64,000 nucleotides of DNA, taken from Octopus vulgaris. Lineage: Eukaryota. Shown here piece after piece: positions 1,642 to 46,356 of this stretch; the first letter of the stretch is position 1; each line of letters starts with the position of its first letter. The stretch is from assembly GCA_951406725.2 (NCBI GenBank), contig OX597817.1, positions 120,714,001 through 120,778,000 of the forward strand, in the 5' to 3' direction. A program made the position numbers and the translations under genes. Below the pieces are notes generated by a model that searched no databases, had not been told where the DNA came from, and was given only the letters and a program-made list of their open reading frames with translations.

Positions 1642-2085
1642 CAAGAAAGTAAATTTTGAATGCAGTAAAGCTAGCAGAGAAAGATTGAGTATTTACCCTT
1701 ATAAGATGGAAAAAAAAGTTGTCAGAAGGCAGCTACAGGACCTGTACCCCTCAGATACTGGCTGGATGCTCTAGCAATTAAGCTAAACAACTCCTACCCC
1801 ACGACAACAATTACCATCAAATTTAATACTAAATTATAGCTTTTAAATGAGACAACAGTTCATCAAGAAAGTAAATTTCGAATGCAGTAAAGCTGTGAGG
1901 ACAGCAGAGAATGATTGGGTATTTACCATTATAAGATGGGAAAAAGCTGCCAGAAGGCAGCTATGGGGCTTGAACCCATAACTGTCAGATACTGGCTGAG
2001 TGCTCTAGCCATGAAGCTAAATGGCCTCCTAGACAACAGTTACCATCAAATTTAATAATAAACTATAGCTTCAAATGTGACAACA
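1642..2085 (-). repeat. Tandem duplication of a ~222-bp unit, each with a tRNA-like sequence
   Basis: Units 1642-1857 and 1864-2085 both start caagaaagtaaattt and end gacaaca, and align throughout. Confidence 0.9.
1956..2026 (-). pseudogene. tRNA-like pseudogene or tRNA-derived repeat head (anticodon position reads AGT, Thr-like)
   Basis: Minus strand GGCCATTTAGCTTCATGGCTAGAGCACTCAGCCAGTATCTGACAGTTATGGGTTCAAGCCCCATAGCTGCC: A-box TAGCTTCATGG, stem TCAG/CTGA around CCAGTAT, B-box GGTTCAAGCCC, then TTTTT shortly downstream. Acceptor stem is mismatched. Confidence 0.55.
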
Positions 2086-2719
2086 TTTTCTAAACAATGT
2101 ATCTATATATATTTAAATTTTGTACTAGAAGTAACTCTATAAGGTAAACATTATCAATGTGAAATACTTAATGTGTGTTGCAAAATTCTTTTAGGCTATG
2201 GTGTGTTGTTCAGGAAATGTCCTCTTAAAGATGTAAGTGGTTAAGAAACACAGCATACTTCAAAGCCAGACTAAATAAACTGCTCAAGAGTGAACAATAA
2301 TGATAAATATCAGTATTTCATTGTTATTTCTGCTTGTTGGTGCTGTATACTTGATTCATTCTCAAAGCATATTCTAATTGCGGGCCTGAAGTATGTGCAG
2401 ATAATGTAAAATATATCTGCTGATGTGCAAAGGTATTGCACAAGTAAAACAAAATTCAAATTTTGTGTTTGAAACAGCCCCATAATGTAATCATTATCAA
2501 TGTCACAATTCTGCAGGCCACATGAATCAAGTATATGGCACTGAGAGCAGAAATAACTGAAATATTGATAACTATAGTTCTCATTCACCTCCGGGGTGTT
2601 TCTTGTCATCTAGCTTTGCATGGTGTTTGATTATGATTGACTTCCTTTTCGAAGATGATGTATGAGTGTTCAGCGTTTTTGTCAAGTGACCTCCACAAAT
2701 GATTTGCTTATAATGATCA

Positions 2720-2868
2720 AATGTATGTGTTGTACATTACTTTACTCCCTCCATCAAATCGACATTGCCTGAACAGGTGCACAGTGTGGTTGCAGAGCAA
2801 TGTGAGATGAAGTGCTTTGCTCAGTAACACAATGCACCACCTGGTCTAGGAATTGAAACTATGACCTT
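2720..2868 (-). mobile_element. SINE family C fragment
   Basis: gagcaatgtgagatgaagtgctttgctcagtaacacaatgcac...ctaggaattgaaac is the reverse complement of the head and core of the copy at 31939. Confidence 0.65.
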
Positions 2869-3070
2869 CCCTCAAAAACATTTTGCAGCCTAAAAGCTTT
2901 TAACAATATACATACATTAAGCATGTGACATTGTTAATATTTACATTGTAGATCTGCTTCTAACACAAAATTGAATTTGGTTTATTTGTGAGGTGCTGTT
3001 GCATATCAAGAGATAGATTTTATATTATCTGTAAACACTTCAGGCATGTGATTAGAATTTGTATCAAGGG

Positions 3071-3139
3071 TGAATTGAGTATATGACACTGATGAGCAAA
3101 AATAACTGTGAAATATCAATATCTGTAATTTCCATTCAT
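3071..3139 (+). ncRNA. Type I hammerhead ribozyme motif (decayed)
   Basis: tgaca CTGATGA gcaa aaataa ctgt GAAA tatcaata TC tgtaa; extended stem I gtgaattgag/ttccattcat. Confidence 0.7.
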
Positions 3140-3289
3140 CTCCAGGGTAGTTTATTTCTCCCATCTTTAAAGTATTACACGTTTTTCAACACTACATCTT
3201 TAACAGGACCTTCTCAGGATGAAATACCATAGCCTAAAAGTGTTTAACAACACACATATGTGACATTGGTAGTATATATGCATATACAA

Positions 3290-3355
3290 GAATTGAGTAT
3301 ATGGCACTGATGAGCAGAAATAACTGTGAAATATCAATATCTGTCATTCTCTTTC
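3290..3355 (+). ncRNA. Type I hammerhead ribozyme motif (near-intact)
   Basis: atggca CTGATGA(3307-3313) GCAG aaataa CTGT GAAA(3328-3331) tatcaata TC(3340-3341) tgtcat; stems I and II pair, with G-U wobbles. Confidence 0.8.
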
Positions 3356-3756
3356 ATCTGCAGGGTGGTTAATTTCTTCTGATTTTGAAGTGTTACATGT
3401 TTTTCAACACACTACATCTTTAATGAGACATTCCCAGGATTAAATACCACACTTTGAAAATGTTTAACAATACACATACATTGAGTATGTGACATTGGTA
3501 ATGTATATGTATATAGAAGAATTAGTCTTGATGTCTGAATCGCCATTCATCACAGGTCTGCTTAATAAAGGCTGTCTTGCAACTAAGCAACAACAAATGA
3601 ATGAACATGTTTATATGACTGATTGTAAATGAATATAGCTTTGAGTGAATGTGAGTGCAGGTATGTTTGTGTCTCCTAGTCTTTAAACAGACAATATTTT
3701 AAATTTTTAATAAATTATTTTCAGGTGAATATCATTTTAAAAACATTTTTCACATA

Positions 3757-4713
3757 TCTAAAAACAATTTTTAAGTGAAAATGGCTCTAAAAACACGGTA
3801 AATATTTTGTAAAAGACCCGTTTGTAACCTCGGTGTGAAATAATTTTTTCCATAGGATTTTTTTGAGTGCATTCAAAGTATATTACCTCAAAAAATTTGG
3901 TTGCTATTTCTAGTAAGCCCTGCTACCACGTAACAGCTATTTGAGACAAAGGACCTGTTACATGGTAGCAGGGTGTGGAAGAAATAGCAACCAAGTCTTT
4001 CCTTTTCGGGGGAAAGGAGCTGTTTATGTGTGATTTCGATGTCACATTCATTGAAAGCATGTGAAGTAACCTAGAAAAGAAAAACAATCCATGAAACAAA
4101 ATTCCATTAATGGGAAACTCAGAGTTCCCTGGGAAACTCAGAGTTCCCTGGGAAACTCCAAGTTCCTCACCACCCCTGTTCCCTTCTTTTTCAGAAGAAA
4201 GTGGCTTGCAGTGGGTTTGGAGGTAAGATATATTCATTGCACTAAAAAAATCTTGTGTAAAAAATTATTTCACACCAACGTACGAATGGGTCCTTTATGA
4301 AATATTTACCCAAGATTGGGGCAGGCATATGAATAGAAGAATCGATGAGACTGATAAAACAAGGGCTGATCATCTGGTGGAACAGAGAGAAAGACACAGA
4401 AGCAGGAGAGATCAGGAATCTGATGCTCAGAGACCTGAGTATTTGGTGAAACTGGGGGAAAAAAACAGAACCAAGAAACGTCAAGAAATTTCGCATAAAT
4501 CAGACCACTGGTTACTCAGATATAGAGTTTTTTTCAGGAACATTTATAAATAGCCAAACTGGCATATAATGAGAAAAATGCTTTGAAAGTAGGGCACCAT
4601 TGAAATGTGAACACTCACAGAATAACGGAATTTTCACGTAAATCGGACCAGAGATATGCGAGCTTTTGGGTATCTTGAACTATTGGTGACCCAACGCGTC
4701 ATGAGTAGTCTAG
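3757..4713 (+). mobile_element. Probable non-autonomous Helitron-like element with internal inverted repeats
   Basis: 3' end has the hairpin TGAC-ccaacgc-GTCA, then CTAG|T at 4710-4714. Possible A|TC start at 3757 (uncertain). Internal ~75-bp inverted repeats at 3815-3889 and 4220-4292. Confidence 0.45.
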
Positions 4714-36055: not shown

Positions 36056-36259
36056 AGAGTAAACACATAAATGTGAAACAAGGTGGAAAAAAGAGTACTC
36101 AAATACCAGTGATAGAGTAATATGCTTTATTCAAAAGCAGCAGAAAATTCAACAAAACCTATTACTCTGAGTTTCGCAAAAACTGTCTGACGAACGGGAA
36201 CGTGAAACTCAGAGTAACAGGTTTTGTTGAATTTTCTGCTGCTTTTAAATAAAGTATAT
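36053..36259 (+). mobile_element. Fold-back + tail element in (TA)n carrying an intact hammerhead
   Basis: Tail 36053-36119; inverted arms 36120-36175 and 36204-36259. Confidence 0.9.
36183..36220 (+). ncRNA. Type I minimal hammerhead ribozyme, canonical core
   Basis: CTGT CTGACGA ACG ggaa CGT GAAA CTC a GAG TA ACAG; all three stems pair; GUA triplet, predicted cut after 36216. Confidence 0.88.
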
Positions 36260-46073: not shown

Positions 46074-46356
46074 CTTTATTGAAAAGCAGCAAAAGTATAT
46101 CACAAATACTGTTACTCAGAGTTTCATGTTCCCATTCGCTGGACAGTTTTGTTTAGAATGGAATAGAAATAAGGTTATAAGCAAATTGCTTATAACCTTA
46201 TTTCTATTCCATTCTAAACAAAGCTATCTGATGAACGGGAACATGAAACTCTGAGTAACAGTTTTTGTGATATATTTTTGCTGCTTTTCAATAAAGCATA
46301 TTATTCTACCTCTGTTATTTAAGTAATATTTTTGCCACCTAGTTTCACATTTATGC
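46074..46356 (+). mobile_element. Fold-back + tail element: 223-bp palindrome with two opposed hammerheads
   Basis: Arms 46074-46184 and 46186-46296 centred on 46185; HHR (+) 46223-46262; decayed HHR (-) 46108-46147; tail to ~46356. Confidence 0.92.

What the first reader, a model, noticed from the sequence alone, without database searches (positions are those of the whole stretch)
3072..3518. Tandem ~220-bp hammerhead-delimited units: retrozyme / circular RNA candidate
Seen: two head-to-tail units whose HHR cores are 218 bp apart (predicted cuts after 3123 and 3341), plus a third degenerate HHR at 2523-2587. Stem III reads TATCAATA in two copies and TATTGATA in another. These are the two opposite CpG-deamination products of the palindrome TATCGATA. 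Stem I extends beyond an internal loop (gaattgag-tat-atgaca / tgtcat-t-ctc..ttc), unlike minimal PLE motifs. Established: metazoan non-LTR retrozymes are tandem repeats of a few hundred nt with type I HHRs that release monomers able to circularise. Inference: a read-through transcript would release a 218-nt RNA (3124-3341).
Basis: partly seen in the sequence, partly recalled or inferred. Interest (0 to 1): 0.75.

Follow-up and report, generated by a model that had tools for sequence, protein, structure and literature searches.

The report
Fossil hammerhead retrozyme, locally duplicated
The two side-by-side self-cutting RNA motifs are real, but they are decayed remains of an old, likely extinct jumping repeat whose normal unit is about 345 letters, and the 218-letter spacing is likely a one-off local DNA duplication that is unlikely to make a circular RNA, so this is an ordinary fossil of a known kind.

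Summary
In detail: two type I hammerhead cores lie 218 bp apart (predicted cuts after 3123 and 3341), with a third at 2517-2594 and an overlooked fourth on the minus strand. The 218-nt circle reading is not supported.

The family is dispersed (at least 73 other loci), old (copies about 70% alike) and non-coding. Its hammerhead spacing elsewhere is 326-345 bp in 8 of 10 pairs, never 218. The 218-bp unit lacks about 125 nt of the family unit, carries host flank and is bounded by a 5-bp microhomology. Its junction was found nowhere else. It folds no better than shuffles (z +0.8), against z -4.2 for the family consensus. The first hammerhead has broken stems.

The family behaves like a non-LTR retrozyme inserted by Penelope-type enzymes: covarying stems, 19 head-to-head inversions against 0 tail-to-tail, and two fixed ends about 31 nt apart at microsatellites. 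No partner element was found, and cleavage and circles are untested. The scan had already reported younger hammerhead retrozyme families with this footprint elsewhere in the same genome. Verdict: a new, dead member of a known kind.

The parts
2111..2507 (-). Inverted arm of the insertion, about 1.15 family units, head-to-head with the plus arm (16 nt gap); ends at the family's second fixed end, next to a short TA run
   Evidence: 80% to the family consensus
2284..2364 (-). Dead hammerhead in the inverted arm; core positions 3-9 read CCAACAA, the expected CpG-decay product of a CCGA-type core
   Evidence: (62.8 bits; this copy was in the training set)
2517..2620 (+). Start of the plus arm with a dead hammerhead (2517-2594: one core base and two stem II bases deleted)
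2621..2862 (.). Unrelated high-copy repeat sequence interrupting the plus arm; likely a later insertion
   Evidence: summed contig depth in the thousands to tens of thousands at 2668-2859 against tens beside it; 2795-2863 matches four other places in the window
2863..3275 (+). Rest of the plus arm: more than one full family unit, ending near the family's first fixed end
   Evidence: 84% to the consensus over 2886-3258
3065..3145 (+). Hammerhead 1: core letters intact, G10.1-U11.1, A-C mismatch in stem II, G-A mismatch in stem I; predicted cut after 3123
   Evidence: (constrained fold -3.1 kcal/mol, 8.6 above the minimum)
3072..3289 (+). Duplicated unit 1 (218 bp): hammerhead to element end plus about 20 nt of host flank
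3283..3363 (+). Hammerhead 2: core letters intact, G10.1-U11.1, inner stem I and stem II paired, outer stem I cut short by the duplication breakpoint; predicted cut after 3341
   Evidence: (constrained fold -6.6 kcal/mol, 4.9 above the minimum)
3290..3518 (+). Duplicated unit 2 (229 bp), with the same element end and host flank as unit 1
3519..3523 (+). 5-bp microhomology GAATT, also at 3072-3076 and 3290-3294: likely breakpoints of the duplication

Best explanation
The locus is a decayed copy of an old repeat family with one hammerhead motif per unit of about 345 nt, likely a non-autonomous retrozyme pasted in by a Penelope-type enzyme, and the 218-bp repeat is likely a later local DNA duplication that is predicted not to yield a stable circular RNA. 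Steps: (1) inferred from known retrozymes: tandem copies were transcribed and cut by the hammerheads, probably pairing the palindromic stem III between two copies; (2) predicted: the roughly 345-nt monomer folds so that a long stem extending stem I holds its two ends together, which would allow ligation to a circle; (3) inferred from the insertion shape: a Penelope-like RT-endonuclease cut in a TA/CA-type microsatellite and copied the RNA from both DNA ends, starting at two fixed points about 31 nt apart, giving two head-to-head arms (shown: 2111-2507 minus, 2517-3275 plus); (4) shown: CpG decay and point changes damaged all four hammerheads and another repeat interrupts the plus arm; (5) inferred: at roughly half the element's age the stretch between two GAATT words, one in stem I and one in the host flank, was duplicated, before the lineages of organisms A and B parted.
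For: Unit length: same-strand hammerhead spacing at other loci is 326-345 bp in 8 of 10 pairs, 278 and 597 in the other two, never 218; seven multi-unit arms give periods of 335-347. Local origin: units 1 and 2 are the most similar of 1264 copy pairs (84% against a mean of 70 +/- 4%), differ at 30 of 197 columns against 58 of 196 and 64 of 203 to the inverted arm, share 14 departures from the consensus and share non-family flank. The junction search gave 3 of 3 candidates: itself and two matches to the hammerhead half only. Real and old: contigs of 998 and 990 nt in runs X3 and X4 and a 607-nt piece in X5 (organism B, 27 substitutions) cross the junction, and B's unit 1 keeps a 9-nt stretch in unit 2's state. 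Lost structure: the 218-mer as a circle has z +0.81 (49 of 60 shuffles as good), the family consensus z -4.24 (0 of 60), three well-kept arms -2.85, -3.02 and -1.74; 37 of 109 consensus pairs lose one strand and 24 lose both in the 218-mer. Selected ribozyme in the ancestor: stem II pair A-U 18 / U-A 20 / G-C 2, stem I pair A-U 32 / G-C 8; covariation score 0.276 with 0 of 500 shuffles as high and at most 0.132 when slid. Penelope footprint: 19 head-to-head against 0 tail-to-tail junctions in 52 loci, ends piling up near unit positions 165-169 and 196-200, and alternating purine-pyrimidine flanks at 14 of 51 such ends against 5 of 91 5' flanks (Fisher p 0.0005); this matches the inverted 5' copy, 30-40 bp tail and microsatellite bias described for PLEs. 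Extinct: best non-self matches are 72-80% even with a CpG-rich copy as query; 4 of 75 hammerheads keep the core plus G10.1-C11.1, all four picked by pattern.
Against: Both window cores still read CUGAUGA, GAAA and UC, and hammerhead 2 keeps stems I and II (pair probabilities about 0.8 in the 81-nt fragment, though stem I drops to 0 in a 450-nt context), so slow cleavage is not excluded. No partner PLE was found: the family matches none of 30 GIY-YIG loci examined, out of 150 scored. Genome searches score only 40 candidates each, so uniqueness of the junction and absence of young copies are lower-bound results. The covariation shuffle ignores relatedness, the structure was drawn from the consensus, 12 of 55 rows were chosen by pattern, and the count of pairs changed on both sides did not beat shuffles (75 of 500). 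The broad clustering of 3' ends is partly set by the queries used; 40 of 91 arms end elsewhere. Organism B shows no change in 3056-3126 while 8 lie in 2995-3055, a post hoc hint of constraint.
Confidence: 0.78

Rival explanations
1. The repeats are pseudo-LTR remnants of a 5'-truncated autonomous Penelope-like element rather than a free-standing retrozyme.
For: Inverted 5' arms, a roughly 31-nt offset between ends and microsatellite targets are PLE traits. In Xenopus many retrozyme families match PLE termini.
Against: Long arms run into the next unit (up to 3.05 units) rather than into an ORF. tblastn with 25 open frames from GIY-YIG loci over 93 family loci (duplicates included) gave as best hits only stretches of 26-45 residues from the start of one frame that also hits six places in the window. 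The hammerhead has the canonical 6-bp stem I and 4-bp stem II, not the minimal PLE form.
Confidence: 0.1
2. The second 218-229 bp unit was made during the original insertion by a reverse transcriptase template jump, or is a second insertion into the first copy's microsatellite tail, not a later DNA duplication.
For: PLE insertions are often partial tandems of 5'-truncated copies, and the family targets such tails. One other locus has a short 278-bp spacing.
Against: Arms from one event should be equally diverged, but units 1 and 2 are half as far from each other as from the inverted arm. The duplicated stretch includes host flank and ends in a three-way 5-bp microhomology.
Confidence: 0.07
3. 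One reading: the pair is a working retrozyme dimer and read-through transcripts release a 218-nt RNA (3124-3341) that circularises.
For: Two cores with intact catalytic letters in tandem; 218 nt lies in the published size range of about 170-400 nt; the pair is kept in organism B.
Against: The unit is not the family monomer and is found only here. Hammerhead 1 has broken stems I and II, both lack G10.1-C11.1, and the palindrome needed for a dimeric stem III has decayed. The 218-mer is not self-paired beyond chance. In a published test only 1 of 9 predicted genomic dimers cleaved.
Confidence: 0.05

Closest known systems
Metazoan non-LTR retrozymes (Cervera and de la Pena 2020, PMC7229834, passages and section 14 seen; mussel 350-390 bp, axolotl 330 and 350 bp)
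   Same: One canonical type I hammerhead per non-coding unit, unit of about 345 bp, GC 36%, monomers to trimers, predicted highly self-paired circle, PLEs in the same genome.
   Different: Those are expressed and cleave; this family is about 30% diverged between copies with no young member found. Copies are dispersed, short and often two-armed rather than long arrays. The 218-bp pair is not a family unit.
Non-LTR retrozymes as non-autonomous PLE derivatives (Li, Clavereau and Pollet 2026, 10.64898/2026.07.22.740005, parts 1-3 of 5 read)
   Same: Dispersed monomers and dimers; co-occurrence with RT plus GIY-YIG elements.
   Different: They show homology to PLE pLTRs in Xenopus; no pLTR homology was found here in 30 loci. 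Their rule (two consecutive units with complete hammerheads) could score this locus as active although the pair is a local duplication.
Penelope-like element insertions (Craig et al. 2021, 10.1101/2021.04.23.441226, passages seen) and PLE minimal hammerheads (Cervera and de la Pena 2014, PMC4209133, passages seen)
   Same: Partial tandems, an inverted copy adjacent to the 5' end, a 30-40 bp offset at one end, microsatellite bias, palindromic stem III.
   Different: No ORF; canonical rather than minimal hammerhead (stem II 4 bp, stem I 6 bp plus an outer helix).

Membership tests
Non-LTR retrozyme (family level) | Canonical type I hammerhead in each unit (6-bp stem I, 4-bp stem II, short stem III with palindromic loop) | tested here: met
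   definition from passages
Non-LTR retrozyme (family level) | Head-to-tail units of about 150-450 bp | tested here: met
   spacing 326-345 bp in 8 of 10 pairs; arms of 2.05-3.05 units at four loci
Non-LTR retrozyme (family level) | Non-coding, GC below 45% | tested here: met
   longest stop-free frame of the circular consensus 45 aa; GC 0.36
Non-LTR retrozyme (family level) | Monomer predicted to be highly self-paired | tested here: met
   consensus circle z -4.24; single arms -2.85, -3.02, -1.74; the window's own full unit +1.61
Non-LTR retrozyme (family level) | No LTRs, primer binding site or polypurine tract | not tested
   no LTR-like layout seen in the arm maps, but PBS and PPT were not searched
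Non-LTR retrozyme (family level) | Self-cleavage in vitro | not testable with these tools
   needs a transcription assay
Active retrozyme dimer (the 218-bp pair) | Repeat unit is the mobile family monomer, present at other loci | tested here: not met
Active retrozyme dimer (the 218-bp pair) | Two complete, foldable hammerheads | tested here: inconclusive
   core letters present in both; hammerhead 1 has stem I and II mismatches, both have G10.1-U11.1
Active retrozyme dimer (the 218-bp pair) | Released RNA highly self-paired | tested here: not met
   z +0.81, 49 of 60 shuffles as good
Active retrozyme dimer (the 218-bp pair) | Circular RNA detected | tested here: inconclusive
   only assembled contigs of runs guessed to be RNA were available
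Autonomous Penelope-like element | RT plus GIY-YIG ORF flanked by this repeat | tested here: not met
   limited to 30 GIY-YIG loci and about 1.5 kb of flank per family locus
PLE-type insertion footprint | Inverted 5' copy, 30-40 bp end offset, microsatellite target | tested here: met
   19 against 0 junctions, ends near 165-169 and 196-200, 14 of 51 against 5 of 91 flanks

The most novel reading that the evidence does not exclude
A dead retrozyme was reborn by accident: CpG decay turned an ancestral U4C (CCGAUGA) core into the canonical CUGAUGA, and a local duplication then placed two such cores 218 nt apart, creating a new host-transcribed self-cleaving cassette that releases a small RNA and has been kept since before organisms A and B diverged.
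Probability: 0.04. Interest if true: 0.65.

Novelty: new member of a known kind. Interest (0 to 1): 0.2.

Why it matters
As it stands it matters little. It adds an old, extinct family to a known class and shows that the two-armed Penelope-type footprint noted for young families in this genome was already present in a family about 15-20% diverged from its consensus. It is also a caution: local duplications of dead copies can pass pattern screens for active retrozyme dimers, and CpG decay of a U4C core can make a dead hammerhead look canonical. If the pair did cleave and circularise, it would be a case of a circular-RNA cassette arising anew from a fossil.

Tried and rejected
Rfam gathering scan: no hammerhead family hit; not informative for decayed AT-rich copies. 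Tandem Repeats Finder did not report the 218-bp pair.

Expression: no RNA holder listed. Laying contigs of runs guessed to be RNA (X1, X2, X6, X8) showed flat depth of 3-5 over the element in X1 and X2, similar to unique sequence beside it in X1, nothing in X6 and X8, and no 3341-to-3124 joint's table; one search's joint table was cut (47 rows not shown). These are contigs of uncertain type and are no evidence for or against expression.

Partner PLE: 30 of 150 scored GIY-YIG loci were scanned with the family profile (best E 0.47), by blastn (best E 0.045) and with the hammerhead model (2 weak hits to hammerheads of other sequence). None is related in sequence.

A whole-genome search with the covariance model was not available, so intact relatives that differ in sequence were not surveyed. 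Earlier scan notes had nothing by sequence or near this place, so whether the young 359-360 nt family noted elsewhere descends from this one is untested.

Rejected: assembly artefact (junction in three other runs); protein-coding role (six ORFs of 42-99 aa in decayed copies, none in the consensus); chance motif.

Literature: searches (20 of 97 listed; 20 of 52 listed) listed no paper describing this family; Repbase and Dfam could not be searched, and the supplements of the Li et al. preprint were not seen.

Full report
Observation. The window is G000:C4:120714001-120778000 in a 2.8-Gb, 227-contig genome. It is AT-rich and microsatellite-rich. Earlier AI notes call it a cephalopod; I did not test that. 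Hammerhead cores start at 3089 and 3307, 218 bp apart, and the two units align at 81% over 234 columns. Predicted cuts fall after 3123 and 3341. The stem III palindrome is confirmed as ancestral: 4 of 9 pattern matches keep the CG, and 43 copies not chosen by pattern read CA 25, CG 8, TG 7, other 3.

The family. DNA searches of the genome gave 49, 51 and 45 matches, with 40 candidates scored each time out of 69, 128 and 249. Similarity and pattern searches up to one search cover 73 distinct loci outside the window on 23 contigs. A capture-recapture estimate from only 2 recaptures gives about 340-470 loci, rough and likely low. Copies are about 70% alike (mean 70.1%, SD 4.2%, 1264 pairs of 51 copies). 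Even a CpG-rich copy finds nothing closer than 72-80%. The majority consensus repeats after 348 columns. Seven arms longer than 450 nt give periods of 335-347, up to 3.05 units. Same-strand hammerhead spacing outside the window is 326-345 in 8 of 10 pairs, with 278 and 597 in the others. The consensus has no stop-free frame over 45 codons.

The ancestral ribozyme. I aligned 55 of the 75 hammerhead copies found, leaving out 20 by eye for gaps or low identity. On the named type I structure 79.2% of cells pair. The covariation score is 0.276, with 0 of 500 shuffles as high and at most 0.132 when partners are slid. Stem II swaps A-U (18) for U-A (20) and G-C (2), and the core-proximal stem I pair swaps A-U (32) for G-C (8). 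Against this: the number of pairs changed on both sides did not beat shuffles (75 of 500), the shuffle ignores relatedness, and 12 rows were picked by pattern. The geometry (6-bp stem I with an outer helix, 4-bp stem II, short palindromic stem III) is the canonical metazoan form described in PMC4209133 (passages). Of 75 copies, 18 keep the core letters and 4 also keep G10.1-C11.1, all four found by pattern. Core positions 3-5 read CTG 20, CCA 8, CCG 6, TTG 5 and other 4 among 43 unselected copies, and 5 CCGA-type cores with intact C11.1 exist. So at least one subfamily had a U4C core, a variant said to lower activity in vitro yet work in vivo (PMC3088659, passage). The window's inverted arm reads CCAACAA there. 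If both arms came from one template, the canonical-looking cores at 3089 and 3307 may themselves be CpG-decay products. That is inference.

Insertion shape. In 52 distinct loci (75 before removing overlaps, the window included) there are 19 head-to-head junctions within 300 nt and no tail-to-tail ones (binomial p 4e-6). Of 91 arms, 51 end between unit positions 140 and 215, piling up near 165-169 and 196-200, far from the cleavage site. Fourteen of these 51 are followed by alternating purine-pyrimidine runs, against 5 of 91 5' flanks and 753 of 10,400 random 30-mers (Fisher p 0.0005). The broad range is partly set by my queries; the exact end points and their flanks are not. An inverted 5' copy, a 30-40 bp tail and microsatellite bias are described for Penelope-like elements (10.1101/2021.04.23.441226, passages). 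The idea of testing two fixed ends came from earlier AI notes on younger families. The genome holds many RT plus GIY-YIG elements, some with 781-codon frames, but none of the 30 examined shares sequence with this family, and no RT-length match lies beside family copies.

This locus. The element is an inverted arm (2111-2507, ending at position 200) set head-to-head with a plus arm (2517 to about 3275, ending near 165) that is interrupted at about 2621-2862 by high-copy sequence. The 218-bp repeat is an addition. Units 1 and 2 are the closest of all 1264 pairs (84%). They differ at 30 of 197 columns against 58 of 196 and 64 of 203 to the inverted arm, share 14 departures from the consensus, and share about 20 nt of non-family flank. 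The same 5-bp word stands at 3072, 3290 and 3519. A search with the junction gave 3 of 3 candidates: itself and two half matches. Contigs in X3 and X4 (998 and 990 nt) and in X5 (organism B; 27 substitutions in 607 nt) cross the junction, and B's unit 1 keeps a 9-nt stretch in unit 2's state. So the duplication is real, about half as old as the insertion by these distances, and older than the A-B split.

Would it make a circle? The family consensus folds as a circle far better than shuffles (z -4.24, 0 of 60); three well-kept arms give -2.85, -3.02 and -1.74. The 218-mer gives +0.81 (49 of 60 as good) and the window's full unit +1.61. In the consensus fold positions 16-53 pair with 259-295, extending stem I; the 218-mer lacks that partner, losing one strand of 37 and both strands of 24 of 109 pairs. 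Hammerhead 1 has a G-A mismatch in stem I and A-C in stem II (constrained fold -3.1 kcal/mol, 8.6 above the minimum). Hammerhead 2 is better (-6.6, 4.9 above); the best-kept copy L031 gives -15.8, 3.5 above. Stem III is barely predicted in any copy, the best-kept included, which fits a dimeric mode; its palindrome has decayed here. In a published test 1 of 9 predicted genomic dimers cleaved (10.64898/2026.07.22.740005, parts 1-3 of 5 read; supplements not seen). The RNA look-ups were uninformative and are listed under tried and rejected.

Results against my reading. Both cores keep their catalytic letters. Hammerhead 2 keeps stems I and II in isolation. Organism B has no change in 3056-3126 while 8 fall in 2995-3055, a post hoc and weak hint. 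No partner element was found, and all genome counts are lower bounds.

Comparison and verdict. The family works like, and meets the testable features of, metazoan non-LTR retrozymes (PMC7229834, passages and section 14), with a Penelope-type footprint. Cleavage and circles are untested. The 218-bp pair fails the tests for a family monomer and for a self-paired RNA. Four paper searches listed no description of this family, but repeat libraries were not searchable. It is a new, apparently extinct member of a known kind; interest 0.2.

Noticed in passing
window 36187-36225 (+) and 46228-46266 (+): A second, unrelated hammerhead-like motif with a short stem II, each preceded by an inverted partial copy and set between TA runs; both match L080 (84% over 255 nt, 82% over 197 nt, TA runs included), a GIY-YIG locus. 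Possibly another PLE-type terminal repeat family.
   Followed up: partly
window 1642-2085: Tandem dimer (period 228, 80% match) of a tRNA-like repeat on the minus strand, Rfam tRNA hit at 1955-2026, likely a SINE, just left of the inverted arm.
   Followed up: no
window 3812-4296: Nested inverted repeats (53-nt arms at 3812-3864 and 4244-4296; 46-nt arms at 3891-3936 and 3955-4000), MITE-like.
   Followed up: no
window 3056-3126: No substitution in organism B across 71 nt covering most of hammerhead 1, while 8 lie in the 61 nt before it. Post hoc; this hammerhead's stems are already broken.
   Followed up: no
L087:2945-3039 (-) and L094:3-79 (+): Hammerhead-like motifs of other sequence lying antisense and 1.2-1.4 kb downstream of GIY-YIG domains; the L087 one sits in an inverted pair ending at a TA run.
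   Followed up: partly
L082, L087 and other GIY-YIG loci: A young PLE family with many equal-scoring copies and 781-codon open frames (RT plus GIY-YIG); its 3' region holds tandem repeats rich in ATTGG and TGACGTC words.
   Followed up: partly
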